A program made the translations under genes and the position numbers. Under the pieces are notes generated by a model that did not search any database, was not told the DNA's origin, and saw nothing but the letters and a program-made list of their open reading frames with translations. From Isurus oxyrinchus (taxonomy: Eukaryota), in the NCBI GenBank assembly GCA_026770705.1, contig JANJGN010000034.1, positions 7,378,001-7,442,000 on the forward strand: a DNA stretch of 64,000 bases, given 5' to 3'. Positions 20,289 to 64,000 of the stretch are shown piece after piece (position 1 is the stretch's first letter; each line of letters begins with the position of its first letter).

Positions 20289-20315
20289 AACAAGAAATGG
20301 CCAAGAAGGACAGAG
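20289..20315 (+). CDS. Microexon 7, 27 nt, EQEMAKKDR
   Basis: ttattccatcaatattcctattag|AACAAGAAATGGCCAAGAAGGACAGAG|gtaatg. Confidence 0.88.
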
Positions 20316-21324: not shown

Positions 21325-21360
21325 AACTGGAGAAGCTAAGGAAGAAGCTTCAAGATTGCA
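21325..21360 (+). CDS. Microexon 8, 36 nt, ELEKLRKKLQDC, with non-canonical or lost donor (GAAAGC)
   Basis: ttctttcctgttctcccactcctgccccaag|AACTGGAGAAGCTAAGGAAGAAGCTTCAAGATTGCA|gaaagc. 9/12 aa identical to exon 4. The donor is one base from GTAAGC; whether it is spliced is unknown. Confidence 0.7.
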
Positions 21361-21419
21361 GAAAGCACAGAAAAAATGAAAATCCATTGCTTTGAATTTT
21401 GAATATCATTGCATGGAGC

Positions 21420-21815: not shown

Positions 21816-24249
21816 TTATTGCACAGATGTATCAACTGCTTCTTCCCTAAAGCATTACGGGTGAAATTAGGCACTGTTGCAAGGCCTCTCCTATAGAATC
21901 CATTATCTGATATAAACCCGCTCCATATTAAACTCGGTTAATGTTAACACAACTCAATATCGTGCGCCTGAATTGATTCCGCTCAGTTAACACTTCAGAC
22001 CACGGCTCAGTTACAGGTCATTAAGCTGAAAGGCATCAATACTGAAATAGCAGTAAGGTTTAAGCAAAATAAACAAACAAACAAACAAAAAAGAGGAGAA
22101 GCTAAACCGCTTGAGCTATGAGGTAAGATTGAATAGTCGAACATTATATTTCCTTAATTATAAAAGTTTTTTTCCCAGTGACGCAAATGTGTTTTCCAAT
22201 TTGTTTAGTTCATGGGTAGAGATGTACTGAGGAACTATTTACTCTGGTTTAGTGTCTAGAACAAGGTCATAACATAAATTGAAATGCAATCCTTTAATAT
22301 GTCTGCATACGTTTCCTCCGTTAAGCTGTCGTGAAAATCAGGCAGGATCTCCCCGCAAGTTGCGGCGGCAGCAAGTTCAATACAGAGCTTCAAAACTGAG
22401 ACTGATAGATTGCTGTTAGGTTAAGTGAGTTACTTCTTCTTCTGGTGAAGTGGGTAGTTAAAGTTACGACAAAGATCAGCCATGGCATAATTGAAGAACT
22501 GAGCTGCGCATCAGGCTGGAAGCTGCTGGATGGATTACCCATGTTCCAATATCTTGGAATTGCCATGCCAGCATCGTGTAACTTGGCCACTGCATCAGCT
22601 CATCTGCTGCAGGCGCATTCCTTCCTGTTGTAGTCAACCTTACAATTGACTATTCAGACTCTAGCCTGGTCTCCTACGTTCTACCTTCCATACACTCGAG
22701 GTTCCCTAAAACTCGACGACCCGGATCCTAACTGAATCACACCATCTCAGTAACTTTACTGCGCATAAGGAGGCCATTCGGCCCGTCGTGTCGGCACTGG
22801 CTCTCGAAAAGAGCATTCCACCTAACCCTACTTGCCTGCTTTATCCCTGTAACATTGCACACTCTTTCTTTTCAGATAGCAATCCAATTCACTTATGGAT
22901 ATTTCAATCGAACCTGCCTGCACCACCCCCTCAGGTGAAATTGAACCAAGTTCGATTTAATGATCTCTCCCCGTGATCGTTAACCTATATTTGCTCCCGG
23001 TTCAAGCAAAGGATTCATTATAAAATGCTCACCGAAGTACCACCATGGCCTCTCCTCACCCTATCCCCCTCATCTCTTTCAGCCACACAATTATTAAAGA
23101 TCCGGGCCTTCAGCCAATTTGGGCCTCTTGACATGGACAAATACTAATTGCTGGACCATTGAGAACCATGTGCGAAGTTATCTCAGACCTAAGCTGTGAC
23201 ATTCCATTCAAAACAACTTTCTGACTGACTAAGTTTCATTCATCGTTGAACATGATTCTTAAAACATACCCCTTTGAGCAAGAGTTCGCCGATCTGTCTT
23301 AAAATGCGGTTCCTTGTTGAATTGCCATTGTTAAACACTCGTGTAGAATGTTCATTAATTTAAACGATTGTTTATGTTGTTATGATCTAAATTATCATTC
23401 ATGTCCATTTTAGAACAAAAACAAATCATAAAAGGAAAAGTTAAAAAGAGAGAATGAATTCATTGTGACAATGCTTCTTTTTTATTATTGCTTCAGTGAT
23501 TTCTGCTTCCCCTTATCAGAAATATCTTTACAATCAGGTTTTCGAGTACAGTTATCAGGTTTTGCTACTCAATCTATAGAAAACGCATGGATGTCTTTTT
23601 GTCCCTGACCAAGAAGCTGGAGGTTCAAAACTTCCTTCAAGATTTGATGCCCACTCAATGTGCGTCCATTATGTGGCCAAGGAGGCTGTTTAGCTGCCTG
23701 TAAATCCCTCCATTCCTCTTGATGACAAGCTATAAGAGGAAAAGAGTTTCTTAGTCAGTCACACTGCATAAGGAAATGGCAAACCACTGCAGTAATTCAC
23801 CAAATATAAGCATGGAGCAAGCAATGGCAACAATCTTGAGCATTGCCATGAGGAGAAAAGATTGGGTTTACCACTCTTTTTGAGTTTCCTATTTTCAGCT
23901 CTTCTTCCCTGCTGCACTTATGTATTAGACTTTCATTCCATGACATTCCCAGGCGCGAACCTGGCTGTGCAACCTTTCCTTCTCTAACTATTCGAAGCAA
24001 TATTTCACATCGTGGAAACTCCCAGCATACTCATTTGGCTACTGGCAGCATTGCAAAATGTGGACTGTCATGTATTGAAGCAATGTGTCCGCCTCAGCCG
24101 GAAGTGGGAGTGTCCATTAATGACTGAACAACGTTCAGTCCCATTCGCAATTGATCAGATCCTGAAGGAGCCCTTGTCCATTGACTGAAAAGGTGCAAAC
24201 TACGATCCTACCACATACAAGCCAGAAGAAAAAAACTGCAAGACAGAAT

Positions 24250-28034: not shown

Positions 28035-28061
28035 AGCTAAGGATAAGCAATGAAAACAAAG
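28035..28061 (+). CDS. Microexon 9, 27 nt, (E/K)LRISNENK
   Basis: aataactcttcttgttcgatttag|AGCTAAGGATAAGCAATGAAAACAAAG|gtaaga; resembles exon 5 (EENLSTKNK). Confidence 0.88.
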
Positions 28062-35194: not shown

Positions 35195-35221
35195 ACCAAC
35201 AAATAAAGAATCTACAACGTG
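35195..35221 (+). CDS. Microexon 10, 27 nt, DQQIKNLQR
   Basis: gtttcctctcattttatttcag|ACCAACAAATAAAGAATCTACAACGTG|gtaagc. Confidence 0.9.
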
Positions 35222-37135: not shown

Positions 37136-37171
37136 AAATAGAAGCACTGAAAAAGAAACTGCAAGATTTAG
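37136..37171 (+). CDS. Microexon 11, 36 nt, EIEALKKKLQDL
   Basis: cgttgattctttcag|AAATAGAAGCACTGAAAAAGAAACTGCAAGATTTAG|gtgagt; paralogous to exons 4 and 8. Confidence 0.9.
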
Positions 37172-43259: not shown

Positions 43260-43286
43260 AAGAAAAGCTAAAGCTGAAAGCGAATA
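43260..43286 (+). CDS. Microexon 12, 27 nt, EEKLKLKAN
   Basis: gtcgttctttttgttcacacag|AAGAAAAGCTAAAGCTGAAAGCGAATA|gtgagt. Confidence 0.88.
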
Positions 43287-46200
43287 GTGAGTTCTTCAAA
43301 AATATTTTGTTTCTTCTTAAAATATGCATCCTAATTTAACATGATTTGTCTAGTCTATTCTCACGCCATTGACAATACCATGTACCGCCCTCACCTTTAA
43401 AGTATAATCTCAGTTTGATCTCCACACTTCACCTATACATGCACTTTGATTACATCACACATAGGACACTATGCACATTTCGAGAAGGCATAAATAATCG
43501 GTAAACCCTACCTAACCTACAACTCAGTGCAAAGTTTGAGATTCTGTATAGCTTGCATGCGCCACACCTGGAGAAATGTGCACATTTCTGGCCTCTATAT
43601 ATTTTGGCTAGACCAGTACTAGAGTATTGTGCACGGTTCTCATCTCTATATATCTCTTTCAAACCACGTTTGGGGGATTTTACCCGGTTCATTTTTCCCC
43701 TACACGCTACATAAATCGCATATATTATATGTGTAAGTACTCTTCTTCATATCTACCAGTTAGATCACACTTGGAGTACTGTGCACAGTTCCCGGCTTCA
43801 TTCGCCTGGTTTCAATCACACACACACAGTACTTTGCACAGTCCTGGACTCAATATTTCAGAATAAAGAAAGAGAAATATGGGAGAAGGTGGTTTTTCCA
43901 GAATGGTACCATAACTAAGCATGTATTAAGCTTCAGAGTAATTTGGAAAAGGTTCTTTCTTGACTCACCTAAAAAGAGAACGTGGATATCTGACCTGAGA
44001 GAGGTCTATAAGATTACGAAGTGATATGCGAGATCTACGTCAGAGATGCTGATTTCTGTCCAGAAGGGTTCAAAGATAGAATCATGGAATCATTCAGCCT
44101 ATGACACATTTGAACCGTGATGTCTGATTTGATATTTCAATCTGATTTCCAACTTAACCTTGCATCTGAGCTTAACTCCATGACATCACCAAGTAGTTTC
44201 CCTGCAAACGCATGTCAAATTGCTTTTTTATCTTCCTATTATTCGATTCTACCACCCTTTCACATCCTTTATTCCCTCTGCGTCAAAATACAACACCCTT
44301 ATACCTTTGCCTATATTTACTTCTGTATCTATGGCTTTTGGACCAGTTGCGGCAAAGGGCCAAATTTATTCGAGAATCAACTCACATCCTTTAGTGTTTC
44401 CATTCAGCTTCTATGCTTAAAAGATGAAAATCCCAGGGCCTACAATCTTCTCAAGTAATTTAAGTCTTTCATTCTTGAGGTCATCCAAGCTAAACATCTG
44501 TGTACCATTTGGATTCTCTTGAAATCGTTCCTAAATTATGTCACCAAGCAATCACACGATTTTTCATTGGAGGCCTAGCTATAAGTTTGTGCAAGTTTCC
44601 TATTACTTCACACAAAAAACAAAAATTGCTCGAAATACGGACTCGAAACGTTAACTCAGTCTTCCAATCCTCAGATGCTGAGTTTTTCCAACAATTCTTG
44701 TTTTTGTTCCAGATTTCCAGCATCCGCAGTATTTTGGGTTTTTTTTCTATTACTTCATTGTGTTGGTATTCAATGACTCTTTTTGAAAGGCCAGGTTTCC
44801 CATGCATTGTTCTTAAATATTAATGATCATGGTGCTGACATCACCAAGTCGTTGAGACCTTCCCTGTTCTGCACCTCCCGCAATGAGTACCTCTTGCATT
44901 TATAGTCAATCTCTTGTCTGCATATAGTTGTATATTCAAAATGTCTGGCAAATCTGACAGTCGCTCTATGCTGCTGCTCTCCTGCTCACTATTTGCTACC
45001 TTGACAACTTTTGCATCCACAAACCTTGTAAGTGTAGTCCATGAGCTCAATCCCGCCTCCTTTGAAGATAATAATAAAATCATCAAGTCTCTACCCAGGT
45101 CTGGCGCACAAGACAGTTTCCTGTCCCCGAGTAACGAAAAAATAGGTTTATCATCAAACACTGCCTCCAAATTATTATCCAATTGGCACCTTAATTGGCA
45201 GTACCCTTATTGCAATGTTCTCTTTTTTTTCTGATAGGTTTGCCCCGTCCTTTTTTTCGCCATGTTACTGCGAATGATAATTAATGTTTTCAGTGGCTCA
45301 CGTCTCTACGTTCTCCCCACTACTGCTATTGGTCTATTTGGCCTGTCACTTGTTAACATATATATATATATTTCTAAAATCGCCAATACACCTAAAAGAA
45401 GATTCAGGAGAAATTTATTCACACAGAGACCGTTAGTAAAGCAGAAGTCTCCACCACAGTGCATGTTGGGTGACATTGCATCGCAGTTAAGTGATAGCTA
45501 TCATGATGGAGATGAAATAGGAGATAGGCTGATATAGATTGTTGAATTAAAGTGGAAGAAGGCTCGCAAGAAGTGAGAGGGCGGTCAGAATACATGTGAG
45601 TGCTTCAGGATTTATCAGCGAGTACCTTCCATGCAGGCATCTGCATTGCAGAGTCACAACAGATTATAAATCTATAACCTTGGGATTGAGAGTTTCGAAC
45701 AATCAAAATATGCTCCACCAGCCTCCTGTCTAGTTTAACTAGAAAAGAGAACACAAAGAGGAGTGACCTGGTGAGAATCGTGAAAATCATGAAGACGTTC
45801 GATGACATGAATATGGGGAAGTAATTTCCAATTTTGGGGCATTCCAAAAAAATGGGCATGCATAAAAAATTGTCTTTAATAAAAACCAGTAAGCTATTCA
45901 GAAGAAACTTGTGTATAAAGCAAGTGGCAAGAATATGCAGCAGCTTGCCACATGCAGAGGTCGGGCCATAAAACGTTGAGTCATTTTATTAAATATAGAA
46001 ATATAGATAACGAAAGAGGAGTTAACAAAATAGTCTATTGATCTAGTAGGGTGACACAGGTTTGAGGAAGCTTGTGTGAAAAAGAAACAACAGCATTAAA
46101 TAATTGAGTGGATAGCCTGTTTCTGGGCTGAAAATTAAATGTATTGTCTTGAATTGAACTAAATGCCGCATTAGCTGTGAAAACTTTTGGCAAAGCATTG

Positions 46201-49190
46201 TGGAGACAAATTAGAAGCGGTCCGAGGACACAAAAGTGACCGATGTTCTTTTCTCCCTATTCCCGTTTTAGAGCACACAATCGAATTTTGCAGACCTGAT
46301 AATGGCTCACCGGCATATCTGATGATGTGTCACCACACATGCCCAAGTATTCCTGAAGATTTGGGTTCTGAATGGATGGAGATGTTCAATTGCAATGTAA
46401 TCACAACCCTGGACCACACACATTAATGCGTGTGTTACAATATATAGAGAAAGGATTCAGACATTATGTTATTAATCCCTTGAGAGTGGATTCATTTAAA
46501 ATATATAATTTACCAGTATCTGATTCTGAAGATTAATGGCCAGGATCTATCTTCTGGTAAACATTCCCAGAAATGGTAAATGTTTTAATTACAGTAAAGT
46601 GTTGTTGGAATACCTCTTTCGGTACTTACCTGAACATTGTTTCCTCAATAGAAGAGAAACTCAAAGGGAAAGGTACCTGCTTTATTTTCAAATTCCTGGA
46701 ACAATCTTGAAATATAAAACGGTGTCAAGCAAGTTGAAATACAATTATATGGAGAGGATTTTAAAGTGCTTCATGGAACAGTAAAGGTCAATTGTCAATT
46801 TGGAAATTTGTAGGTGTTCATTCTTTCAGAAGTTTACACAGTAAAGGACGAAAAGTTTTTGTACTTTGCTGATACATCTGCAAACAGAGGGTATAAATTT
46901 GTGGAAGGAGCCAGAGGGCGAAGAGAAGTACTTGTTTCCACTGCTACGACCTGGAATGCACATCCTAAAATGCTGTTGGAAGGAAATTTAAAAGTAGCTT
47001 TCAAAGGACATGGATTGGTGACTTCATTCTTGCATGGGTATCGGGAATATCAGGGAAGAGATGGACATTCAGTGGTCCTTTCAAACATCCATCAAAAACA
47101 CGATTGGCTGAATGGCCACCTTCTGCGCTATATTATGTTCTGATTTTAGTCAGTTTTCTATGTTATTTGCTGGGAATATTACAAAAAGAAACGTTTTACA
47201 GGTTAATGACATGTGAGCCTTGAACTGAATGTTAGCACATTTGCACAATAATTGTGACTTGCATCTATTTGGCGCAGTAAACATAACCAAAAAAAAGGCA
47301 CAATGCATTTTAGAAGAGTATTATCAAACACAATTTCATACCGAGACTCAAAAACAGAAATTAGTGATATGGTCAAATGTTTTCTCAACAAACACCTTTT
47401 GTCTGAGAAAGGAGCCGTAGATGTGAAGGATGCGAGTTCCAGAGGGTAGGATCTTGGCAGTGGAACACAAAGCCAACGATGAGTGAGTGAGAAAGGGAGA
47501 GAGAGATCGAGTGACGCAGAAGAAAATATCATTCAATCAACGGATTTATTGCAAGGAGCTAGGGTTATGTCGTCACAGAGGAAGTGACGAGGTCATGAGA
47601 ATTTTGAATTTTAATACTGAGGGGTTGTCTAACTACCAGCCAATATTGGCCAACTAGCAGGTAACAGGAAATTGACGAGAATCCCCAGAACTCATACGGT
47701 ATTCCATAACATTACTAGCAAGATGAATTCGCCAAATCGCTGAAAGTGGCTATCAATTTGCTAACGTTTATATTCAGGAAAACGATGGCTGCACCTGTAT
47801 GTAGGCACGAAGTTTGTAAAGTGTGATCTGCTCCCGATATTTAAAAATCGTTGGGATATAAAAAGGGGTGTAAATCCTTCTGTACTGAATCTACGATATA
47901 ATTTCGTCAATGAGAGGTGCAAAACGAGAGTTTCTTTTTCTTGCCCGTTGCATCCCTGCGCATGATATTCAATTGCTTTAGCCAATATCTAAATTCCTTG
48001 ACGAGAGGATGGTAGGCAAATCTATAGAGTCCTTTTGCCCTCCCACCCAGCACGAATTCCATTGTAACGAGGTTAATTTATTGATCATTTATATTTGGGT
48101 AATCCATTACTGAAAAAACAAATATCAAAAAGGTAAGGTGTTTTACAGGAAGTGTGCAAAACATTGTGTTATAGAATTAAATAGAGCAACTGTTCTGAGA
48201 AATTGGAGCATCTGAGCTGTACAACATCGGACGACAAGTCCATGCATCGGGCCCTACAGAGACAAATTAAGTTTTATTGATTCAAAGCAAGTGCTGTCAA
48301 ATGGATAGACAATTGGCTGATGATTTGCATAGGGGAAATCCATTTAATAGATAGTCATGAATTGTGGAAAAGATGAAAGTTATCTATTGCACATGCTATT
48401 ATACTCCTATAAAATTCTCAGAGCACCTTAAGCTGCTAAGACCCTAATTCCCTCATGTCTGCAATACCCTCACCAAAGTCCCGCGTCTCTCTCTCTCTCT
48501 CTATCTATCTCTCTCGCTTTGTCTATCTCACACACACAAACACATGGTTATTTTGAATATTGTATAAAATATAAGGATGAATTGGCGAATTTGCTAAGTA
48601 GATTCATATGAATGAAACAAGAATTGAAAATTTGAATTATGGGCTGGTAACAATTTTCAGACAATAATGAAGCCAATAGGAAATGCAGGAAAAACTTACA
48701 GCGTGGTAAAAGAAAAACATAAAAATTATCACCACAGGGAATATAGGAAGAAAACAAAATAAATAAATTAAAGGTGAACACTACTAATGGCATGAGCAAG
48801 AATGGACAAGGAGGGATATGCAGAGACAGATGAAAAGCAATGTTAAGGAGCAAAATTCATGACATAAACTGCGCGACTGAAATGTCTCTATACTGATTAT
48901 TAAATGCAAATTGTGATGGTTTCCATCGATGATCTTTCAAGATGCTGGGTCTATTGTTAGATACATCCTGGAGCTTAATGTAAATATAGCAACTGAACTG
49001 ATGATGGCTGCATGCGTGTTATAAGTCACAGCATTCTGCGAGTGAACCGGGTGAAAAAAACATATTTTGTTTCCCCATGAAGAATGAAGCATTTATTAAT
49101 TGAATCAATATTTTCTAAAACTTGCATAATATCCAGAAAAGGTGCATGGTTTTAAAGCTTCATGTTGAAGAATTCTTATCTGCATTCCAG

Positions 49191-49226
49191 AGCTGAGCGC
49201 GTGTCAAAGCGCATTAAAAGAATTAG
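49191..49226 (+). CDS. Microexon 13, 36 nt, KLSACQSALKEL
   Basis: aattcttatctgcattccag|AGCTGAGCGCGTGTCAAAGCGCATTAAAAGAATTAG|gtaaga. Confidence 0.88.
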
Positions 49227-49904
49227 GTAAGAGTGCCGTTCACTTATAGGTTATAGACTGCTCCAGCTCTTTTTCGCAACAGCTAAGAGGGTGAAAGTTT
49301 ATCTCTAGTTAGAGGAGGAAAAGAAAAGGGGGGGCGGCAGGGAAGTGAGTGTACTCACGCTGCTTATACACACGGCCCATTATTCATTCATGTTAACTTT
49401 AGTAGACCTGGATTTGAAGCACCGCCTATCACGATGTCACACAGCATTAATTACAGTTTCCTATTCTTTGTGCTTCTCCAGCGTACCGCGTAACATCTTC
49501 CTCATTAAAATGCAATTGTGAATTCTGTGCAATTGAGCGGACTTGAAACGGATGCAAGATGGTTTGACGGGACTGGGCCCAATCCTCTTAGAAACAAAAT
49601 ATTGACATATTGCCGAATTGGAGGCCTTACAATTACGAATAATTTTAATGTTCTAAAAATACGAGAAACAAGAATCAAAATTCAGCACGATATTCAATGG
49701 GAAATAAGAATACTCTGCATCACCCAGATTGTGGTGTGAATGTGAATCTCACTTCCATGTTCAGTGTTTAAGTTGACCAGTGTAAATGCATTGAAAGAAA
49801 ATGCAGATAAGTACAAGGGAAGAATGGAACAGAGGGATATGATTGTAGAAAATTTGGGAAATTATTGTGTAGATCTTCACGTCGAACTCTGTTCTCATCC
49901 ACAG

Positions 49905-49931
49905 AAGCGAAACTGAAAAAGACGGAGAAGG
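49905..49931 (+). CDS. Microexon 14, 27 nt, EAKLKKTEK
   Basis: actctgttctcatccacag|AAGCGAAACTGAAAAAGACGGAGAAGG|gtaatc. Confidence 0.88.
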
Positions 49932-50199
49932 GTAATCATGTTCGGAAATTCTTTGAGCCTGAATTCTTTCCATTTTTCACGCTGGCAGTTACAGAATGTC
50001 TTCCAAAGTATTAGATATAACATTAAGCCTTTTGGCTCTTCAGCTTGGGGAATCATTTAGCCTTTTATAAGGCAACGCCAATATACATCGTCTGTAACAG
50101 ATTATATAAATGATTGAAAAAAACAGAACGAATTGACTGTAAAATGCTTCCAGAGATCATCATTGTGTGAAAGCTGCAAAATATTGTATTCTTCGAAAT

Positions 50200-53150
50200 T
50201 TTCGTTGAGGAAAATATAACTGGGAAAATAAAATAATTTAAAGGCTTATTTAACTGTATGGATCAAGCACCCAGAATAATGTAGATGAACGTTTGGCGCA
50301 GATAGATATAAATGGTTATGAATGGTAATTACCACTATAGAGGCACGGTTACACGTGACCAGATTGGGAAACAAATATTCCATAGTGCACATTCTTTTCT
50401 GAAAGACAGACTGAATGGCAAGATAGCCTGCAGAGTAAATGCTGGAATAAGGAGATTAGTGAGGCGGATCTTGGCTCAGATAATTATGAAGTAGAATCCG
50501 TATGGAAAGAAATGCGGAATCGCCAGTGTCAGAGAACCTGGCGGGCTGGTGGTTCACTGGTCCTCAAGCAGCAGATGTACTGCTGGCCAGGAGATTAAGC
50601 AAGAAACTATCTAAACTTGTAACCAAGAGTTAGCACACATTGTGGGTGAATTTAATCTTCTTAAAGGGTGGAATAATCAAATTGGCAAGGTTTGTCAAGA
50701 CAATGAATTTGTATAATGCTTACATAACAAGTTTCCTGGAGCAGTACCTCTGGGAGCCAACTACAGAAAAGGCTTTTTAGATCTAATATTATGTAACAAA
50801 GTAGTGTTAATTAGCAATTTCATCACAAACGATCTGGTTGGACATATTGATCTCAAAACCATTGATTCCATTTTAGTAGGGGAATGCTGCATCCAGCTCT
50901 GGGCGCTGTACTTGAGGAAGGATATGAAGACATTGGAGACAGGACAGACGAGGCTTGGAAGAATGAATCAAGCAATAAAGAACTGTGGCTATAAGGCTAG
51001 ATTGAGAAACTGGAGCTGTTTTCTTTGGAGAAAAGAAAGATGAGAGGAGACTTGGTAGATTATTCAAGATCCTGAAGGGCATGGACAGGGTGAATATTGA
51101 GATGATGGAGGGCACAGATTGAAAATTATTGCCAAACGAAGTGAAAGTGATGTGAGGATTTTATTTCTCAACCAATGGGTGATTTGAGTCCAGAAACAAA
51201 CTTCTGAGTGTGTAGTGGAGGAAGGGTCAATCGAGGTATTGAAAACGGAACAGCATTACTCTCTGAAATAGCCAAATGCAAGGCTACAAGGGTGAGGCAG
51301 GCGAATGGAACTAGACAGTACCGGCAAAGTTATTGCATAGTCAATGGGACTGAAAGGTCTCCTGCTGCACTGTAATGGTTCTGTGGTTCCATGAAGAATG
51401 AAAGCAGCGTGCTCCCATTACAAATATCCTTTAATTTAAGGAAAGTAAATTAAATAGATATGACGTAAGAGCTTTCTAATGTTGATTGGGTCAATAGAAT
51501 AAAGCTTTGGCAGTAAAATACAGTATGGAAACTTCTAAAGAGCCAAATGAAAATGTTCAACAAATATACATTCCACCGAAAAACGAATCCTGAAGACGGA
51601 AGATACTTTGTGGGTTACTAAGAGTGTTAGCAGTAGCCTTAGGTTCAAAGAAGAGGTTTCTAAATTCACAAGTCTTAGTAGAAGGTATAAGGATTAGAAT
51701 TGTTTTCGAGAACAGAGAAAAAAGAAAAGTTAGTAACAAGGGAACAAAGTAGAATATTTGAGCAAATTAGGTTGGGAAATAAAATCAGATTATGAAAGCT
51801 GTTTGGAGAACCTAACATTTAAGAAAATATTCAAAGTGTACCTTGGGTCCTGAGAAATAAGAGCAGAGAAATTATTATGGGAAATTTAGAAACGACAGGG
51901 AGATTGAACAAATCTGTTCTGTCTTTGCAGTTGAAGATACTAGTTGTACACCAGAAACATAGGTTAACTTGCGTATTATGACAACAGAGAAAGTTAAGGA
52001 AATCAATATAATCAGAGTGGTAAAAAGTATTGGAGAAGATTAAAATCCGGCAAATCCCGAGGAATTTAGAGCCTACATTCTAAAACAGATAATTTCAGAG
52101 ATACTGGATGTTCTGTTACAATGCTCCAAAATTCCTAGATTCTGCAATGATTCCAGCAGTCTGTAAACTATCAAATGTATTATTGCTATTCAAAGAGGTG
52201 GCTGTAAGAAAACGTGGAGCTGCAGGCCAGTTAAAGTGAAACGCTGGGAAAGGTTTGGAATGTATTAATAAAGAAGCCTTAAAAATGAAATTATAAAAAC
52301 ATAGTGCGATCAAAGTCAGCATGATTTTGAAATAGGGGAATCGTTTTGCACAGAGGTTTTTTTCTAGGGATGTAAGTAGTAAAGTACATGAAGGGGAATC
52401 AGTCTGTACGTTATAGCTGGATTTTCAAATTGCGTTCAATAAGATGCGAGGCAAAACGCTCACAGACTGGCTAAGCATTCATGGAATTGGGGGCACCATT
52501 TTAGCATGGTAATGGGACTCGTTAATGGGCAGGATGCAAATGAAAGGCATAAATGGGACTTTCTTAAGTTAGAATGCCGTAACAAGTGGAGTGCTGCAAG
52601 GATCAGTGCAGGGGCTCATCAGTTTCCATTCTCTGTGGATGACTCAGGCAAAGAGTCCGAGAGTAGCTTACATACATTTGTTGGTGATACAAATCTATGT
52701 GGAAATGTAAGCAGCGACGCAGACGCAGAGAGGTTGCAGAGAAATAAAGACAGGTTAAATGAGTAGGCAAGAAGAGAGCAGGTGTGAAATAATGTGGGAA
52801 GAGGAAGACTATACAGATTGGTCCTAACGATAGAAACGCTGGACATTGTTAGAAGCCACGAATCTTGTAATTACTAATGTTCAGAACAACATAGATGTGC
52901 TCGGACAAAAGACTCTGAAATGTAGCATTCCAGTACAGCAAGCAATCAGTAAGGCAAAGGGAATGCTGGACTTTATAGAAAGGCGTTTGGAATACAAGAA
53001 TTAGGAAGCCTTATTAAAATTCTACAGGGGCTGTGGAGGCCACACCTGGAGGTTGCCAAGATGTTTTGGCCTCATTATTTAAGGATGAATATAGTTTTAT
53101 TGGAGGTGGTCCAGCAAGGATTCAGTCCATTGGTCGCTGGGATGTTCTGT
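50200..53150 (+). mobile_element. Long decayed CR1 ORF2 (endonuclease to RT) with a nested CR1 piece at ~50870-51390
   Basis: Remnants of VESVW.E.RN, IVG.FN, LDLILCN, K.PG, LDFQ.AF.K, SGV.QGSV.G, FVGDTNLCG and RPHLE. Confidence 0.8.
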
Positions 53151-54475
53151 AAGAACATAAGAAAAAGGATTATGTGCTGTATCATTTTACGCTCCACCAT
53201 TCAATACGATCAGAGCTGATCTTGGGCTTCAACAGCATTTTCCTGCCTGCTCCCCATTTCCAACACACCTCTGTATAAGCTGGGAGGCAAAGTAATGTGG
53301 GCCTATGTTCCATTGCATTCATAAGGATCAGAGGTGCTCCAATTGAAACATACAACATACTTAAGGCGTTTGGTGTGTTAGGCACTGAGGCATTGTTTCT
53401 GCTGGCTGGAGGACCGAGAACACGGGAGAGTGGCCATGTTCACACTCAGAATAATTAGTTGGCCCTTCAGGACTGATATGAGGAGACACTACTTTTACTC
53501 AAATGTTGTGAATCCTTGGAATTCTCTATCACAATTTTTTATACATTCTCCAACGTAGACAATGCCGACGACAGGGATAGACAAACAATTAGTCTCTCAA
53601 GAAATCAAAGGATATGTAGAGTGGACACGAAAACTGGATCTTGATGTCCAACATTCAGCTATAATGGAATTGTTTGGTGGGGCAGACCCTGCGACACATG
53701 ATGTAATATTCATGCTGCAATGCCTTGTGTTAATGTGTTCTTGTAAGGCTAGGGATGTGCTGACATGCATGCATTTCAGATGTATTTTATTAACCTTTGG
53801 ATTCATATCAATGAATCTTCACTTTACCGCCCCATTTTCGCCTTCTTCCTTTACTATTGCACCATGCTCCACCCAGTTGCACATCCCAAGTGACAAAAAT
53901 CAATGCCAGTATTCTCCAAAGTTTCGAAGAATGAGAGGTAATCTAACTGAAACTTACAAAATTCTCACGGGGCTGGGCAGGACAGATGCAGCTGAGATGT
54001 TTCTCCTGGCTGATGACTCAAGACCCAGAGGACACAATCTCAGTAAAAGGGGCAAGGCTTTTAATACTCAAATGAAGACGAACCACTTCATTAAAAGCGC
54101 GGAGGATCTTCCATTTCTCGTCTGCAGAGGGCTGTGCAACTCAAATCATTGAGCATGTCCAAAAGAGATATCGATGGATTGTTGGATATTAAAGGAGCAG
54201 TCTGATGCGGGACTTTGGCGGTAAATGGTGTAGACATAGATGATCATCCATGATCTGTTTGAATGCTGGAACAGACCCGATGGGCCAAATAGCCTACTCC
54301 TGCTCCTATGTCCCTGGGCACATCTGGCACTTTGGTCGAGTAATCTAAGGCGTTTGTTTCAGTCTCCAGTCTCATGGATGTGTAGTTTCATAATCCCTCT
54401 GTTGCCAAATGTTCAGGTTATTTGTACATGTAGAACCTTCAACAAATTGCTTTGTGCAGTCAAGGGGCTGCTGAC

Positions 54476-54635
54476 TGGCATAGCGGTAATGCCCCTGGTT
54501 TAGCAACCCAAAGGCCCAGGTAGAATGTTCTGGGGGTATAAGTATAAAACCAATCGTGGCAGATGCGTGAATCTGAGTTCAGTCAATAAATCTGGAATAT
54601 GAAGTTTGTCTTAGCAAGGTGACCATGGCAGTTAT
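54476..54635 (+). mobile_element. tRNA-derived SINE remnant
   Basis: A-box-like tggcatagcggtaa, degenerate B-box and aataaatctggaatatgaag body; similar reverse copies at ~8340-8480 and ~34800-34970. Confidence 0.5.
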
Positions 54636-55869
54636 CAACACTTGTTCACTTAGATCGGAGTTGTGGATCAATTTCTTCCCTCAGGATGGTGAATCGTTTG
54701 AATTCTCTGCCCCATAGGGTTGTGGAGGCTCAAGCATTAAGGAGGTTCAGGACAGAGGTCGATACTATTTTTTAAAAATACCAATGACATCATGGGATGT
54801 GGGGCAAGATGGCGTTGAGGTAGAAAATCAGCCATGATCTATCTGAATAGCGAGGCAGACTGAGGGACAGAATGGTCTAATCCTGGCCCTACGTCCTGAC
54901 ATGGCATTGCCCCATGCATCCAGATATTGAGAGTTCGGGTACCAGAAGCTTAAGTGGTGCTCAAGCATGGCAGGGATGAATTCACACCTTTATACTTTCA
55001 GCACCTGCGGACCCGAAATGCAACCTTGGGATTACAATAAATCTCTTATGCGCGTGCCTATATGTTGGTCTCGCTGTGTTATCAGCAGAGTGTAAGGTAG
55101 GTGGCTGACAATCCTCTCCAGTGGCTTTGGGTGAATTTGGCGGTGGTCATCTGGCTGCCAGAGGCCCAGAGTGCATCAGAATTCTTTGGGGCGTTTGCAA
55201 TAGTGCAGTGCCTGCTCCTGTGGCAGTGCTGACACCGTCAAGCCCACAGAAAAGATGCAAGATGTAGGAGTCAGGTAATCCTCCACCCTCCCAAGGCATT
55301 CTGGTATCGCACTGCTGAACGGAGAATTAACAGGAGATGTTTAGCAGCCCTTACAAATAGCAGCAGCCATTGTCACGGCTTGTCCTCACGCTTCTCGCTT
55401 CCTCTGCACACCTCGAATCAAGTAGTGGTCGGCAGCAGTGTCTGCCGAATTACCATTGGCCAGTGACCTGAAAAATCCATTGCAGCTGGTTGTGTTGGCC
55501 CAATCTGTTGGTGCTGCAGCTTCTAGTCATGACTGTGGGACTTGGTTCCTAGTAGCAGAATTCAGCCAACCTTTCTTTCCTTCCATTTGCAATCACTACT
55601 CACTAAACACTGTTAACATCGCTGGCCAATGGATGTATTTGAAGCTGAACCAGCTGTTTTGCAGCACTGGTGTTGTGTCTGACGGCAAATGAATTATCAC
55701 GTCCATTCCATAACTCCGTCCCTGTCTCTGCATTTCTGTTTCAAAATTCCTATCTACGTCTGTGTGACATCTGGGCTTGAATATTGTAATGTTCTTTTTT
55801 TTAGCCGAGATCCCACCTGAAACATCTGGTGTTGCATATGAGATCTCATCAAGTCTCTTATTTGATCAT

Positions 55870-56760
55870 TCATTTCTTCCTCGGATGTGTGCATCGATAG
55901 TTAGATCAATATTTCTTCTCCATCCTAACTACCCTTGAAAAGATGGTAGTGAGCCAATTTTTTGAATGGCTGCAGGTTAGATCTTGTAGGCATACCCATA
56001 GTAATATTAGGAAGGGAGTTCGAAGACTTTGGTCCAGTAACGATATCGACAGCACCTTCAAAACCCGCAAACTCTTCCACCTAGAGGGACAAGGACAGCA
56101 GATGCATGGGAAAGCCACTACCTACAAGATGCACTCCAAGTCATATATCACCCTGACTTGGACCTATATGGTCGTTCCTTCACTATCACTGGGTTAAAAT
56201 CTTGGAACACCTTCCCAAACAGCACTCTGGTTGTAGTTACACACACGCACTGCAGTGGTTCAAGGCAGCGGCTCACCACCACATACTCAAGGGAAATAAA
56301 AGCTCTGGGCAAAAAAATTGATTGCCTAGCCAGTGACACCCACGTCCCATGAATGATGAATTAAATATATGTACAGTTCAAAGTCAGGATGATCTGTGGC
56401 TTGGAGAGAGCTTGCATCTGTTGGTGTTCCCAAACATCTGCTGCCTTCGTATTCCTACATAAATGTCATTGATTTGGAAGGTACTGTGGAAGGAGACTTG
56501 GTGAATTGCTGCAACGCATCTTGTAGATGGTACACACCACTGCCACAATGCGTTGGTAGTAGAGCGAGTGAATATTGAATATGTTCAAGTGAGCTGCTTT
56601 GTCATGGATGATGTCCAGCTTCTTGAGTGTTGTGGGAGCTGCACTCATCCTGGCAAATGGAGAGTATTCCAACACACTAATGAATAGTGTCTTGTAGGTG
56701 CTGGACAGGCTTTGCAGAATCAAGAGTTGAGTTATTCGCCACAGAATTTGCCCAGCATCT
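55870..56760. mobile_element. Nested, oppositely oriented family A LINE fragments
   Basis: A + strand copy at 56050-56360 (RSFTITGLKSWNTFPNS) sits inside a - strand copy (SVLEYSPFARMSAAPTTLKKLDIIHDKAAHL). Confidence 0.8.
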
Positions 56761-59700
56761 TATTGATGATGCAAAGCAGGTTCAACTTTCGAGGGAAAAT
56801 ACCCCATTTTTAAATTGTCCGTGTTAGTTGTCAAAAACCCCTAAGGCTTCAACTCTCCATACTTCTGAATTTCCAAGAACTCTACAAACCCCTGAGATCT
56901 CTGCATTCTTCAAATTGAGGCAACTTCCATATCTTCAATGCCATTAGCTACAATTGATTCGCCACAATTGATTTCAATTCCTGACCTGGCCCAAAACGTT
57001 GGATTTTCCTCCCGAAGCATCTCCAACTCTCCCTCCCCCCTTTCTCCTTAAACCATTTTACATTGAGCAATTGTGCATGCATCTGTCCTGATGTTTCCAT
57101 TTAATGTTCGGGGCCATTTTCACCTTTTAACAGTTTGGCATTCCGTATAGCTTGCATGCGCCACACCTGGAGCAATGTGCCCCTTTCTGGCCTCTATATA
57201 TTTTGGCTAGACCAGTATTAGAGTATTGTGCATGGTTCTCGTCTCTATATATCTCTTTCAAAACATGTTTGGGGGATTTTAAACTGTTCATTTTTCCCCT
57301 ACATCCAAGTTAAATCGCATATAATGTATGTGCAAGTACTCTTCTTCATATCTACCAGTTAGATCACACTTGGAGTACTGTGCACAGTTCCCGGTTTCAT
57401 ACACCTGGTTTCAATCACACACACACAGTACTTTGCACAGTCCTGGACTCAATATTTCAGAATAATGAAAGACAAATATGGGAGAAGGTGGTTTACCAGA
57501 ATGGTACCATAACTAAGCATGTATTAAGCTTCAGAGTAATTTAGAAAAGGTTCTTTCTTTATTCACCTAAAAAGAGAACGTGGATGTCTCACCTGAGAGA
57601 GGTCTATAAGTTTACGAAGTGATATGACAGATCTACATCAGAGATGCTGATTTCTGCCCTGAAGGGTTCAAAGCTAGAATCATGGAATCATTCAGCCTTA
57701 TGACACATTTGAACCGTGATGTCTAATTTGATATTTCATTGTGCTTTCCAACTTAACCTTGCATCTGAGGTTAACTCCATGACATCACAAAGTAGTTTCC
57801 CTGCAAACGCATGTCAAATTGTTTTTTTATCTTCCTATTATCCGATTCTACCACCCTTTCACATCCGTTATTCCCTCTGCATCAAAATACAACACCCTTA
57901 TTCCTTTGCCTATATTTACTTCTGTATCTATGGCTTTTGGACCAATAGTGGCAAAGGGCCATATTTATTTGAGAAGCAACTCACATCCTTTAGTGTTTCC
58001 ATTCAGCTTCTATGCTGAAAAGATGAAAATTCCAGGGCCTACAATCTTCTCAAGTAATTTAAGTCTTTCATTCTTGAGGTCATCCAAGCTAAACATCTGT
58101 GTACCATTTGGATTCTCTTGAAATCATTCCTAAAGTATGTCGCCTAACAATCACACGATTTTTCATTGGAGGGCTAGCTATAGGTTTGTGCAAGTTTCGT
58201 ATTCACACAAAAAACAAAAATTGCTCGAAATACGGACTCGAAACGTTAACTCAGTCTTCCAATCCTCAGATGCTGAGTTTTTCCAACAATTCTTGTTTTT
58301 GTTCCAGATTTCCAGCATCTGCAGTATTTTGGGTTTTTTCTATTACTTCACTGCATTGGTATTCAATGATTCTGTTTGAAAGGCCAAGTTTCCCATGCAT
58401 TGTTCTTAAATATTAATGATCATGGTGCTGACATCACCAAGTCGTTGTGACCTTCCCTGTTCTGCACCTCCTGCAATGAGTATTGCTTGCATTTATAGTC
58501 AATCTCTTGTCTGCATATAGTTGTATATTCAAAATGTCTGGCAAATCTGACAGTCGCTCTATGCTGCTGCTCTCCTGCTCACTATTTGCTACCTTGACAA
58601 CTTTTGCATCCACAAACCTTGTAAGTGTAGTCCATGAGCTCAATCCCGCCTCCTTTGAAGATAGTAATAAAATCACCAAGTCTCTACCCAGGTCTGGCGC
58701 ACAAGACAGTTTCCTGTCCCCGAGAAATGAAAAAATAGTTTTATCATCACTAACTGCCTCCAAATTATTATCCAATTGGGACCTTAATTGGCAGTACCCT
58801 TATTGCAATGTTCTCTTTTTCTCTGTTGGTTTGTCCCGTCCTTTTCTTCGCCATGTTACTGCGAATGATAATTAATGTTTTCAGTGGCTCACGTCTCTAC
58901 GTTCTCCCCACCACTGGTATTAGTCTATTTGGCCTGTCACTTGTCAATGTTTATATATTTTTAAAATCGCCAAGACACCTAAAAGAAGATTCAGGAGAAA
59001 TTTATTCACACAGAGACCGTTAGTAAAGCAGAAGTCTCTACCACAGTGCATGTTGGGGGACATTGCATCGCAGTTAAGTGATAGCTATCATGATGGAGAT
59101 GAAAAAGGAGATAGGCTGATATAGATTGTTGAACTAAAAAGGAAGATGGCTCGCAAGAAGCTGGGCACAGGGCGGTCAGAGCACATGCGAGTGTTTCAGG
59201 ATTTATCAGCGAGTACCTTCCATGCAGGCATGCATAAAAAATTGTCTTTAATAAAAACTAGTAAGCTATTCAGAAGAAACTTGTGTATAAAGCAAGTGGC
59301 AAGAATATGCAGCAGCTTGCCACATGCAGAGGTCGGGCCATAAAACGTTGAGTCATTTTATCAAACATAGGAATATAGATAATGAAAGAGGAGTAAACAA
59401 AATAGTCTATTGATCTAGTAGGGTGACACAGGTTTGAGGAATCTTGTGTGAAAAAGAAACAACAGCATTAAATAATTGAGTGGATAGCCTGTTTCTGGGC
59501 TGAAAATTAAATGTATTGTCTTGAATTGAACTAAATGCCGCATTAGCTGTGAAACATTTTGGCAAAGCATTGTGGAGACAAATTAGATGTGGTCCGAGGA
59601 CACAAAAGTGACCGATTTCTTTTTTCTCCCTATTCCCGATTTGGAGCACACTCAATTGAATTTCGCAGACCTGATAATGGCTCATCGGCATATCTGATGA

Positions 59701-62592
59701 TGTGTCACCACACATGCCCAAGTATTCCTGAAGATTTGGGTTCTGAATGGATGGAGATGATCAATTGCAATGTAATCACAACCTGGACCACACACATTAA
59801 TGTGTGTGTTACAATATATAGGGAATGGATTCAGACATTACGTTATTAATCCCTTGATTGTGGATTCATTTAAAATATATAATTTACCAGTATCTGATTC
59901 TGAAGATTAATGGCCAGGATCTATCTTCTGGTAAATATTCCCAGAAATGGAAGATGTTTTAATTACAGTAAAGTGTTTTTGGAATACCTCTTTCGGTACT
60001 TACCTGAACATTGTTTCCTCAATAGAAGAGAAACTCAAAGGGAAAGTTATGTGCTTTATTTTCAAATTCCTGGAACAATCTTGAAATATAGAATGCTGTC
60101 AAGCAAGTTGAAATATAATTATGTGAAGAGGATTTTAATGTGCTTCATGGAACAATAAATGTCAATTGTCAATTTGGAAATTTGCAGGTGTTCATTCATT
60201 CAGAAGTTTACACAGTAAACGATGAAGAGCTTTTGTACTTTGCTGATACATCTGCAAACAGAGGGTATAAATTTGCGGAAGGAGCCAGAGGGCAAAGAGA
60301 AGTACCTGTATCCGCTGTTACGACCTGGAATGCACATCCTAGAATGCTGTTGGAAGGAAATTTAAAAGAAGCTTTCAAAGGACATGGATTGGTGACTTCA
60401 TTCTTGCATGGGTATCGGGAATATCAGGGAAGTGATGGACATTCAGTGGTCCTTTCAAACATCCATCAAAAACATGATTGGCTGAATGGCCTCCTTCGGC
60501 GCTATATTATGTTCTGATTTTAGTCAGATTTCTATGTTATTTGCTGGGAATATTACAGAAAGAAACGTTTTACAGGTTAATGACATGTGAGCCTTGAACT
60601 GAATGTTAGCAGATTTGCACAACAATTGTGACTTGCATCTATTTGGCGCAGTAAACATAACCAAAAAAAAGGCACAATGCATTTCAGAAGAGTATTATCA
60701 AACACAATTTCATACCGAGACTCAAAGTCAGAAATTCGAGATAAGGTCAAATGTTTTCTCAACAAACACCTTTTGTCTGAGAAAGGAGCCATAGCTGTGA
60801 AGGATGTGAGTTCCAGAGTGTAGGATCTTGGCAGTGGAACACAAAGCCACCGATGAGTGAGTGAGAAAGGGAGAGAGAAATGGAATGACTCATAAGAAGC
60901 CATCATTCAATCAACGGATTTATTGCGATGAGCTAGGGTTATGGCTTCACAGAGTAAGTGACGAGGTCATGAGAATTTTGAATTTTAATATTGAGGAGTT
61001 GCCTAACCACCAGCCAATATTGGCCAACTAGCAGTTAACAGGAAATTGACGGGAATCCCCAGAACTCATACGGTATTCCATAACATTACTAGAAAGATGA
61101 ATTCGCCAAATTGCTGAAAGTGGCTATCAATTTGCTAACGTTTATATTCAGGAAAACGATGGCTGCACCTGTATGTAGGCACAAGTTTGTAACGTGTCAT
61201 CTGCTCCCGATATTTAAAAATCGTTGGGATCTAAAAATGGGTGTAAATCCTTCTGCATTTAATCTACGATATAATTTCGTCAATGAGAAGTGCAAAACGA
61301 GAGTTTCTTTTTCTTGCCCGTTGCATCCCTGCGTCTGATATTCAGTTGCTTTAGCCAATATCTAAATTCCTTGACGAGAGGATGATAGGGGAATCTATAG
61401 AGTCCGTTTGCCCTGCCTCCCAGCACGAATCCCATTGTAACGAGGTTAATTCATTGATCATTTATAAATGGGTAATCCATTACTGAAAAAACAAAAATCA
61501 AAAATTAAGGCGTTTTAGAGGAAGTGTGCAAAACATTGTGTTTGAGAATTAAACAGGCCAACTCTTCTGAGAAATTGGAGCATATGAGCTGTACAACATC
61601 GGACGACAAGTCCATGCATTGGACCCTACACAGACACATAAAGTTCTATTGATTCAAAGCAAGTGCTGTCAAATGGATAGACAATTGGCTGATGATTTGT
61701 ATGGGGGAAGTCCATTTAATAGATAATCATGAATTGTGGAAAAGATGACAGTTGTCTATTACACTTGCTATTATACTCTTATAAAATTCTCAGAGCACTT
61801 TAAGCTGCTAAGACCCTAATTCCCTCTTGTCTGCAATACCCTCACCAAAGTCCCGTGTCCCTCTCTCTCTCTATCTATCTATCTCTCTCTCTCTGTCTAT
61901 CTATCTCACACACACACACACACACACACAAACACAAACACAAACACATGGTTATATTGAATATTGTATAAAATATAGGGATGAATTGGCGAATTTGCTA
62001 AGTAGATTCATTTGAAGGAAACAAGAATTGAAAATTATGGGCTGGTAACAATTTTCAGACAATAATGAAGCCAATAGGAAATACAGGAAAAACTTCCAGC
62101 GTGGTAAAAGAAAAACATAAAAATTATCACCACAGGGAATAGAGGAAGAAAACAGGATAAATAAATTAAAGGTGAACAATGCTAATGGTATGAGAAAGAA
62201 TGGACGAGGAGGGATATGCGGAGACAGTTAGATGAAAAGCAATGTTAAGGAGAACAATTCATGACATAAACTGCGCGACTGAAATGTCTCTATACTGATT
62301 ATTAAATGCAATTCGTGATGGTTAACATCAATGATCTTTCAAGATGCTGGGTCTATTGGTAGATACATCCTGGAGCTGTATGTAAATGTAGGAACTGAAC
62401 TGATGGCGGCCGCCTGAGTGTTATAAGTCACAGCATTCAGCGAGTGAACCGGGTGAAAAAAACATATTTTTTTCCCCCATGAAGAATGAAGCATTTATTA
62501 ATTGAATCAATATTTTGTAAAACTTGCATAATATCCAGAAAAGGTGCATGCTGTTAAAGCTTCATGTTGAAGAATTCTTACCTGCATTCCAG

Positions 62593-62628
62593 AATTAAGC
62601 GCGTGTCAAAGCGCATTAAAAGAATTAG
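62593..62628 (+). CDS. Microexon 15, 36 nt, ELSACQSALKEL (duplicate of exon 13)
   Basis: aattcttacctgcattccag|AATTAAGCGCGTGTCAAAGCGCATTAAAAGAATTAG|gtaaga. Confidence 0.87.
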
Positions 62629-63317
62629 GTAAGAGTGCCGTTCACTGTTAGGTTATAGACTGCTCCAGCTCTTTTTCACAACAGCTAAGAGGGTGAAAGT
62701 TTATCTCTAGTTAGACGAGGAAAAGAAAAGTTGGGGGGGGTGGGGGGCGGCCGGGAAGTGGGTGTACTCACGCCGCTTGTACAAACGGCCCATTATTCAT
62801 TCACGTTAACTTTAGAAGACCTGGATTTGAAGCACCGCCTATCACAATGTCACACAGCATAAATTAGTTTCCTATTCTTTGTGCTTCTCCAGTGTACCGC
62901 GTAACATCTTCCTCTTGAAAATGCAATTGTGAATTCTGTGTCATTGAGCGGACGTGAAACGGATGCAAGATGGTTTGACGGGACTGGGCCCAATCCTCTT
63001 AGAAACAAAATATTGACATATTGCTGAATTGGAGGCCTTACAATTACGAATTATTTTAATATTCTAAAAATACGAGAAACAAGAATCAAAATTCTGCACG
63101 ATATTCAATGCACGAAATAAGAATACTCTGCATCACCCAGATTGTGGTGTGAAAGCGAATCTCACTTCCATATTCAGTGTTTAAGTTGAACCGTGTAAAT
63201 GCATTGAAATAAAATCTAGATAAGTACAAGGGGAGAGTGGAACAGAGGGATATGATTGTAGAAAATTTGGGAAATTATTGTGTAGATCTTCATGTCGAAC
63301 TCTGTTCTCATCCACAG

Positions 63318-63344
63318 AAGCGAAACTGAAAAAGATGGAGAAGG
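63318..63344 (+). CDS. Microexon 16, 27 nt, EAKLKKMEK (duplicate of exon 14)
   Basis: actctgttctcatccacag|AAGCGAAACTGAAAAAGATGGAGAAGG|gtaatc. Confidence 0.87.
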
Positions 63345-64000
63345 GTAATCATGTTCGGAAATTCTTTGAGCCTGAATTCTTTCCATTTTTCACGCTGGCA
63401 GTTACAGAATGTCTTCCAAAGTATTAGATATAACATTAAGCCTTTTGGCGCTTCAGCTTGGGGATACATTTAGCCTTTTATGAGACAACAGCAATATGCC
63501 TCGTCTATAATAGATTATAAAAGTGATAGAAAAAAACAAAACGAATTGACTGTAAAATGCTTCTAGAGATCATCATTGTGTGAAAGCTGCAAAATATTGT
63601 ATTCTTCGAAATTTTCTTTGAGGAAAATGTAACTGGGAAAATAAAATAATTTAAAGGCTTATTTAACTGTATGGATGAAGCACCCAGAATAATGTAGATG
63701 AACGGTTGGCAGAGATAGATATAAATGGTTATGAATGGTAATTACCACTACAGAGGCACGGTTACACGTGACCAGATTGGGAAACAAATATTCCATAGTG
63801 CATATTCTTTTCTGAAAGACAGACTGAATGGCAAGATAGCCCGCAGAGTAAATGCTGGAATAAGGACATTAGTGAGGAAGGATCTTGGCTCAGAAAAGAA
63901 TGAAGTAGAATCCGTGTGGGAAGAAATGCGGAATGGCAAGAGTGAGAAAACATGGCGGGCTGGTAGTTCAAAGGTCCTCAAGCAGCAGATGTACTGCTGG

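What the first reader, a model, noticed from the sequence alone, without database searches (positions are those of the whole stretch)
43533..64000. Recent ~13.6-kb intragenic duplication adds exactly one 36+27 exon pair (21 aa) in heptad register
Seen: 43533-50586 is repeated at 57132-64000. The only convincing exons between the two copy starts are 49191-49226 (36 nt) and 49905-49931 (27 nt), and both reappear with intact splice sites at 62593 and 63318. About 13.6 kb of DNA therefore contributes 63 coding nt and preserves frame, alternation and a/d register. Inference: this is the rod-elongation mechanism caught in the act. More copies may follow beyond the window, and copy number may vary between individuals. 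That 50587-57131 is also duplicated (true head-to-tail tandem) cannot be seen here.
Basis: partly seen in the sequence, partly recalled or inferred. Interest (0 to 1): 0.8.

Follow-up and report, generated by a model that had tools for sequence, protein, structure and literature searches.

The report
Old exon-pair duplication lengthens coiled coil
A stretch of an animal gene was copied onto its own end long ago, probably adding 21 amino acids to a rod-shaped protein built from tiny exons; this is a clean example of a well-known way genes grow, not a new mechanism.

Summary
The duplication is real: 43533-50586 recurs at 57132-64000 (window end) with 385 substitutions in 6811 aligned bases (K2P 0.059) and 21 indels. 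Both copies carry an intact 36+27-nt phase-1 exon pair that continues the heptad register; no exon was found in 49932-57131. A decayed 51-nt repeat array runs across the left edge of copy 1 but is cut at 57132, so copy 2 holds the new junction, as a head-to-tail duplication predicts. 'Recent, caught in the act' is not supported: divergence is CpG-enriched and implies millions of generations. Frame is kept by any exon-bearing duplication here, register by 21-53%. New: an apparently dead 36+27 pair at 21325/23414 and a 27-27-27 run show that the rod also loses exons and does not strictly alternate. The gene and the organism were not identified; co-splicing of both pairs is untested. The closest precedent is chicken BG heptad-exon number variation. 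Verdict: known mechanism, good example, modest interest.

The parts
43533..50586 (+). Copy 1, visible part of the duplicated unit (native left edge)
   Evidence: repeat array continues upstream across the edge
50587..57131 (.). Exon-free spacer, inferred to be the distal half of the 13.6-kb unit; contains dispersed-repeat fragments, read by recall as decayed CR1/L2-type LINE
   Evidence: no 36/27 exon; Pfam 0 of 61 plus-strand frames in 49932-57131; 1022 of 6545 nt match elsewhere in the window; LINE label recalled from reading
57132..64000 (+). Copy 2, cut by the window end; carries the new junction at 57131|57132
49191..49226 (+). 36-nt phase 1-1 exon, copy 1
49905..49931 (+). 27-nt phase 1-1 exon, copy 1
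62593..62628 (+). 36-nt phase 1-1 exon, copy 2 (3 synonymous differences from copy 1)
63318..63344 (+). 27-nt phase 1-1 exon, copy 2 (one Thr/Met difference)
43456..43852 (+). Decayed array of ~51-nt units that spans the left breakpoint of copy 1
   Evidence: upstream unit at 43456 scores 11.2, reached by 0.7% of random 230-nt windows
57132..57451 (+). Same array, truncated at the copy-2 junction
   Evidence: best upstream score -5.1, reached by 51% of random windows
45636..45854 (.). 219 nt present in copy 1 only, 5-nt identity at its two ends
1527..1553 (+). Older rod exon, 27 nt, GC donor
3320..3355 (+). Older rod exon, 36 nt
5196..5231 (+). 36-nt exon with weak donor; follows another 36-nt exon and breaks register if included
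8090..8116 (+). Older rod exon, 27 nt, GC donor
9660..9695 (+). Older rod exon, 36 nt
12964..12990 (+). Older rod exon, 27 nt
18984..19019 (+). Older rod exon, 36 nt
20289..20315 (+). Older rod exon, 27 nt (first of a 27-27-27 run)
21325..21360 (+). Apparently dead 36-nt exon: best peptide match to the class, donor reads GA instead of GT
   Evidence: profile score 18.3, above 20 of 20 shuffles
23414..23440 (+). Apparently dead 27-nt exon: donor reads TT
   Evidence: profile score 20.8, above 20 of 20 shuffles
28035..28061 (+). Older rod exon, 27 nt
35195..35221 (+). Older rod exon, 27 nt
37136..37171 (+). Older rod exon, 36 nt
43260..43286 (+). Older rod exon, 27 nt, 246 nt upstream of the breakpoint and not duplicated

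Best explanation
An old, probably fixed, head-to-tail intragenic duplication of 43533-57131 inside a gene whose coiled-coil rod is encoded by 36-nt and 27-nt symmetric phase-1 micro-exons. Shown: same-orientation copies, one junction at the start of copy 2 that cuts a repeat unit, one intact exon pair per copy, heptad register continuous. Inferred: the break was joined without long homology (end joining or template switch; 10 of the first 13 nt match, which may be imperfect microhomology); both pairs are spliced into one mRNA, adding 21 aa (three heptads); the copy survived because a whole pair leaves register unchanged whereas a lone 27-nt exon shifts it by +2 and a lone 36-nt exon by +5. The rod grows and shrinks slowly by birth and death of exon pairs, and this is the only event young enough for its introns still to align.
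For: Co-linear 94% match. Junction polarity. No similarity between the two left flanks. Exons and splice cores intact in both copies; 3 synonymous and 1 non-synonymous difference, P about 0.02 for at least 3 synonymous of 4. a/d 14 of 18. No domain-bearing terminal exon seen in the spacer: Pfam 0 of 61. CpG-context transitions 34% per CpG versus 2% per other site show real post-duplication decay. Flanks of older exon pairs score at most 44 against a null maximum of 43, the duplicated pair 405-438. Dead pair at 21325/23414: including both or neither leaves a +4 shift, only one gives +2, which strains coiled coils most according to PMC5082667 passages.
Against: The second half of copy 2 and any cDNA are unavailable. 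Selection evidence is thin: 1 non-synonymous change against 2.9 expected (P 0.22), and intact splice cores are expected by chance with P 0.08-0.63. A short terminal exon in the spacer cannot be excluded: 8 acceptor-like sites and 9 AATAAA there, though at or below background density. The polarity of the junction is also what a mis-joined second haplotype or a later insertion would show. ts/tv is only 0.98, lower than I recall for vertebrate neutral DNA. One 178-nt identical run is longer than a uniform model gives (P 0.007) and bin dispersion is borderline (P 0.055), so some conversion between copies is possible.
Confidence: 0.7

Rival explanations
1. The duplication is real but does not lengthen the protein: the gene ends, or splices past one pair, so copy 2 is a skipped pair, an alternative pair or the start of a 5'-truncated paralogous fragment.
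For: Tandem exon duplications are generally associated with mutually exclusive splicing (PMC3342872 passage). This gene already holds apparently dead or weak exons. Both 27-nt copies have weak donors (score 1.3). Splice-site survival is not significant on its own.
Against: Synonymous excess between the copies (P about 0.02); no terminal domain exon detected in the spacer; order 36-27-36-27 is not the adjacent same-class layout of exclusive exons.
Confidence: 0.15
2. Not a 13.6-kb tandem unit: a shorter block (7 kb or more) was copied and inserted 6.5 kb downstream, or the original unit was different and the left edge of copy 2 was reshaped by a later deletion or transposon insertion. The coding outcome is the same.
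For: The match stops only because the window stops; the spacer has repeat fragments; a 219-nt indel shows later remodelling.
Against: One junction explains everything seen; nothing in the window needs a second event.
Confidence: 0.09
3. Assembly artefact: two diverged haplotypes placed in tandem (false duplication).
For: Such a mis-join gives the same sharp junction polarity. If the gene is an immune gene under balancing selection, alleles could be unusually diverged (inference). Amphioxus reaches 3.2-4.2% heterozygosity (PMC12862219, search listing only).
Against: 5.65% substitutions plus 21 indels over 6.8 kb of intron is about 30 times the nucleotide diversity of 0.002 reported for epaulette shark; differences are directionally balanced and CpG-enriched, not homopolymer errors.
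Confidence: 0.06

Closest known systems
Chicken BG genes (butyrophilin family), cytoplasmic heptad micro-exons
   Same: Coiled coil encoded by many tiny exons with a split first codon; exon number varies (27-37, one allele with an apparent 4-exon insertion); heptads span exon borders; some predicted exons unused (PMC5938342 passages; PMC4046983 passages and section 8 part 1 of 2).
   Different: BG exons are 21 nt (some 18 or 24), so each exon alone keeps register; here exons are 36 and 27 nt and only the pair does. Introns here are 0.7-12.7 kb. No Ig, transmembrane or B30.2 exon is in the window, so kinship is untested.
Intragenic segmental duplications of titin and nebulin
   Same: Multi-kb blocks of exons plus introns repeated in tandem inside one gene, extending a repetitive protein (PMC9142044 passages; PMC9109913 search listing).
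   Different: Those blocks carry 8-9 exons, are highly identical and vary in copy number among people; here one exon pair, 94% identity, no sign of current turnover.
Tandem exon duplication / internal gene duplication in general
   Same: 7-17% of metazoan genes carry tandem exon duplications (PMC3342872 passage).
   Different: Usually linked to mutually exclusive splicing; here additive use is inferred, not shown.
CD23 (FCER2) and related C-type lectin stalks
   Same: Coiled-coil stalk (PMC8359454 passages). From recall only: built of 21-aa repeats on 63-nt phase-1 exons, number differing between human and mouse. The rod here has 2 N-glycosylation sequons among 11 Asn and 3 Cys.
   Different: The 21-aa unit is split into 36+27 nt; no lectin or transmembrane exon in the window; the paper read gave no exon sizes (0 occurrences of 'exon').

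Membership tests
Head-to-tail intragenic duplication with exon gain | Same-orientation copies including introns | tested here: met
Head-to-tail intragenic duplication with exon gain | New junction at the start of the downstream copy, native sequence at the start of the upstream copy | tested here: met
Head-to-tail intragenic duplication with exon gain | Duplicated exons intact, symmetric and in frame | tested here: met
Head-to-tail intragenic duplication with exon gain | Whole unit repeated (50587-57131 recurs after 64000) | not testable with these tools
   window ends at 64000; no animal genome collection available
Head-to-tail intragenic duplication with exon gain | Both exon sets in the same mRNA | not testable with these tools
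   no transcript data
Titin/nebulin-type copy-number-variable segmental duplication | Copies near-identical, able to recombine now | tested here: not met
   5.65% substitutions, 21 indels, longest identical run 178 nt; the identity needed for recombination is recalled
Titin/nebulin-type copy-number-variable segmental duplication | Copy number differs among individuals | not testable with these tools
   no population data
BG / butyrophilin genes | Heptad-encoding micro-exons with split first codon | tested here: met
BG / butyrophilin genes | Exons of 21 nt (18 or 24) | tested here: not met
   0 plus-strand candidates of 18, 21 or 24 nt at score >=8
BG / butyrophilin genes | Ig-V and transmembrane exons upstream, B30.2 or 3'UTR exon downstream | not testable with these tools
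   no Pfam match at curated cut-off in 173 of 173 plus-strand frames scanned; gene ends lie outside the window
CD23-like C-type lectin stalk | 21-aa repeat on single 63-nt exons (recalled) | tested here: not met
   0 candidates of 63 nt at score >=8; unit is 36+27
CD23-like C-type lectin stalk | Type II transmembrane exon and lectin domain | not testable with these tools
   outside the window

The most novel reading that the evidence does not exclude
The host gene is an undescribed lineage-specific gene (possibly a BG/butyrophilin-like or lectin-stalk immune gene of cartilaginous fish) whose rod is built on a 36+27-nt two-exon module and changes length by birth and death of whole pairs under selection for heptad register, with one datable gain, one dead pair and one tolerated +4 discontinuity visible in a single locus; rod length would then differ among related species and could be read as a natural experiment on coiled-coil length.
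Probability: 0.3. Interest if true: 0.55.

Novelty: new member of a known kind. Interest (0 to 1): 0.3.

Why it matters
Coiled-coil length is usually conserved (length variation 3.6 times lower than in other regions, PMC5082667 passage), so a rod that gains and loses three-heptad modules is a useful comparative case. Because neither exon alone keeps register, this gene allows a direct test of whether register filters which duplications and losses survive, which 21-nt BG exons cannot show. The mechanism itself is textbook, and the single event is weak evidence of such filtering (21-53% of random blocks pass).

Tried and rejected
Gene identification failed. A profile of separate exon translations found 0 of 5478 candidates at E<=10, but a local control showed that this profile and two others cannot detect even the window's own predicted rod at that database size (E 2.8e3 to 5.8e9), so the blank says nothing. 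The spliced protein was not searched or folded, so its family and structure stay open. Pfam: 0 of 61 spacer frames, 2 of 112 other plus-strand frames and 3 of 13 repeat-like frames gave only sub-cut-off hits. Rfam: 0 matches. Organism not established: the Atlas gave weak 'Eukaryota' rows and LINE-fragment searches gave 1 and 5 unnamed proteins; 'cartilaginous fish' and 'CR1/L2 LINE' are recalled impressions. Homologous recombination at the junction rejected: the two left flanks share nothing, and a faint near-register unit at 57058 scores at background. Older alignable duplications rejected. A third decayed exon at 7184 rejected as not significant (14.1, reached by 4 of 20 shuffles). Candidates at 27309 (36 nt), 34695 (30 nt), 46652 (21 nt) and 59228 (33 nt) were dropped from the chain for poor class match; they were not formally excluded. 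No missing 36-nt exon in 28062-35194 or 27-nt exon in 3356-5195 was found. Literature: no paper on a 36/27-nt heptad-exon gene (open-licence library only; no supplements read).
Full report
Observation. Self-BLAST gives 43533-45640 against 57132-59231 (93.8%) and 45855-50586 against 59227-64000 (93.1%); the other 18 of 20 listed self-matches are 290 nt or shorter. A global alignment has 6426 identities in 6811 ungapped columns, 191 transitions, 194 transversions, K2P 0.059 and 21 gap events, the largest 219 nt; the left edge is sharp and the right edge is the window end. The four exons have AG/GT sites and are open only as phase 1-1 exons in the coiled-coil frame. Exons of 27 and 36 nt are strongly enriched on the plus strand: 6 and 6 at score >=8 against 0 and 0 on the minus strand and 1 for the other 15 lengths together (weights recalled).

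The host gene. The window lies wholly inside a rod-coding region. Sixteen phase 1-1 exons were taken as the working chain, at 1527, 3320, 5196, 8090, 9660, 12964, 18984, 20289, 28035, 35195, 37136, 43260, 49191, 49905, 62593 and 63318; four weaker candidates were dropped. The chain translates to 165 residues without stop or proline, rich in Lys, Leu and Glu. In 36-nt exons positions 2, 5, 9 and 12 are hydrophobic or Cys in 6, 6, 6 and 5 of 7; in 27-nt exons position 4 is in 9 of 9. Over the last six exons 14 of 18 a/d positions are L/I/M and 2 are Cys. No Pfam family reached its cut-off in 173 plus-strand frames and Rfam gave nothing. The gene could not be named: the one search is void because its profile fails a positive control. 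The organism is not established by any search; the repeats look to me, from recall, like those of cartilaginous fish.

What lies between the copies. No 36- or 27-nt candidate scores above 3.6 in 49932-57131, against 33-55 for the trained exons and their copies; Pfam finds 0 of 61 frames; 1022 of 6545 nt match dispersed repeats elsewhere in the window. A short terminal exon cannot be excluded, but acceptor-like sites there (8 in 7.2 kb) are below the window background of 2.3-2.9 per kb. So 13.6 kb between the copy starts most likely holds 63 coding nt.

The junction. A decayed array of about 51-nt units starts the duplicated block. In copy 1 it continues upstream of 43533 (unit at 43456, score 11.2, reached by 0.7% of random windows; another in register at 43512), whereas upstream of 57132 the best score is -5.1, reached by 51%. 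Copy 1 is therefore native and copy 2 begins at a new junction that cuts a unit. The two left flanks do not align, which argues against unequal crossing-over between repeats. Three mismatches in the first 13 nt (P 0.03) may mark imperfect microhomology with the true break near 43546; that is inference. This polarity is what a head-to-tail duplication of 43533-57131 predicts, but a dispersed insertion or a mis-joined haplotype would look the same.

Age. Differences are directionally balanced and 52 of 191 transitions are in CpG context with 99 CpGs shared, 34% per CpG against 2% per other site: real decay, not sequencing error. K/2mu is 4.2e7 generations at the epaulette-shark rate of 7e-10 and 2.9e6 at an assumed 1e-8, and the divergence is about 30 times that shark's diversity of 0.002 (PMC10587355 passages). 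The shark figures apply only if the taxon guess is right. Against full uniformity: a 178-nt identical run (P 0.007) and borderline dispersion (P 0.055), and a low ts/tv of 0.98 that I cannot explain. It is recent only relative to the other exon pairs, whose flanks score at most 44 against a null maximum of 43, while this pair scores 405-438. Present-day copy-number variation is therefore unlikely, though untested.

Is the gain used and selected? The pairs differ by 3 synonymous changes and 1 Thr/Met change; at least 3 synonymous of 4 has P about 0.02, but 1 replacement against 2.9 expected has P 0.22, and intact splice cores have P 0.08-0.63. This is weak support for both copies being translated. 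Every random exon-bearing block keeps frame; 21-53% keep register depending on block size, 21-25% at 13.6 kb, where exactly one pair is captured in 8% (using present-day intron sizes). The single event is thus only mildly informative about register selection.

Loss as well as gain. A 36-nt segment at 21325 is the best peptide match to its class but has a GA donor and no in-frame GT before a stop; a 27-nt segment at 23414 has a TT donor. Each beats 20 of 20 shuffles, narrowly for the first (18.3 against 17.9; 20.8 against 17.8). With both or neither, the 27-nt run leaves a +4 register shift; with the 36 alone, +2. PMC5082667 (passages) says insertions of 1, 3 or 4 deform a coiled coil locally while 2 or 6 strain it to breaking. 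The weak-donor exon at 5196 follows another 36-nt exon and removing it restores register. My inference is pairwise birth and death; a rare GA donor or a base error at 21362 is not excluded.

Comparison. Chicken BG genes encode coiled coils on 21-nt exons whose number varies from 27 to 37, with an apparent 4-exon insertion in one line (PMC5938342 passages; PMC4046983 passages and section 8 part 1 of 2; Kaufman 1990 seen only as a reference title). Titin and nebulin carry tandem multi-exon blocks with copy-number variation (PMC9142044 passages; PMC9109913 listing). Tandem exon duplication affects 7-17% of metazoan genes (PMC3342872 passage). The locus works like BG tail expansion but fails the 21-nt exon feature and cannot be tested for Ig, transmembrane, B30.2 or lectin exons. 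The CD23 parallel (21-aa repeat) is recalled; the paper read (PMC8359454 passages) confirms only a coiled-coil stalk. Searches found no description of a 36/27-nt heptad-exon gene; they cover open-licence papers only and no supplements were read.

Verdict. Real duplication, most likely an old fixed tandem gain of one three-heptad exon pair (confidence 0.7). Known mechanism, new instance; interest 0.3. The more interesting object is the unidentified gene and its apparent pairwise turnover (probability 0.3, interest 0.55 if true).

Noticed in passing
window 21325-21360 and 23414-23440 (+): Apparently dead 36+27 exon pair with donors changed to GA and TT; the 36-nt one could instead use a rare GA donor or act as a truncating last exon.
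   Followed up: partly
window 20289, 28035, 35195 (+): Three 27-nt exons in a row give a +4 heptad shift (a stutter, label recalled); the middle one has Leu at position 2 like a 36-nt exon.
   Followed up: partly
window 3320-3355 and 5196-5231 (+): Two 36-nt exons in a row, the second with a weak donor; no 27-nt exon found between them; possible skipped or alternative exon.
   Followed up: partly
window 1553 and 8116 (+): Two of nine 27-nt exons end in GC donors, more than I recall as usual for vertebrate introns.
   Followed up: no
window 1527-1553, 12964-12990, 9660-9695, 49191-49226: Two N-glycosylation sequons among 11 Asn and Cys at d positions hint at an extracellular stalk; too few to decide.
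   Followed up: no
window 43456-43852, 57162-57451, 6481-6565, 16742: A ~51-nt tandem unit that resembles (recall) a fragment of CR1 LINE coding sequence recurs at several places as short decayed arrays.
   Followed up: partly
window 45636-45854: 219-nt segment absent from copy 2 with 5 identical bases at its ends, like a microhomology-mediated deletion after the duplication.
   Followed up: partly
window 45070 / 58663 region: A 178-nt identical run between the copies (P 0.007 under uniform divergence), possibly a short conversion tract; ts/tv over the block is only 0.98.
   Followed up: partly
window 61861-61948 versus 48486-48560: Microsatellite expanded by about 30 nt in copy 2.
   Followed up: no
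window 40948-41024: Near-perfect 38-nt tandem duplication in an intron.
   Followed up: no
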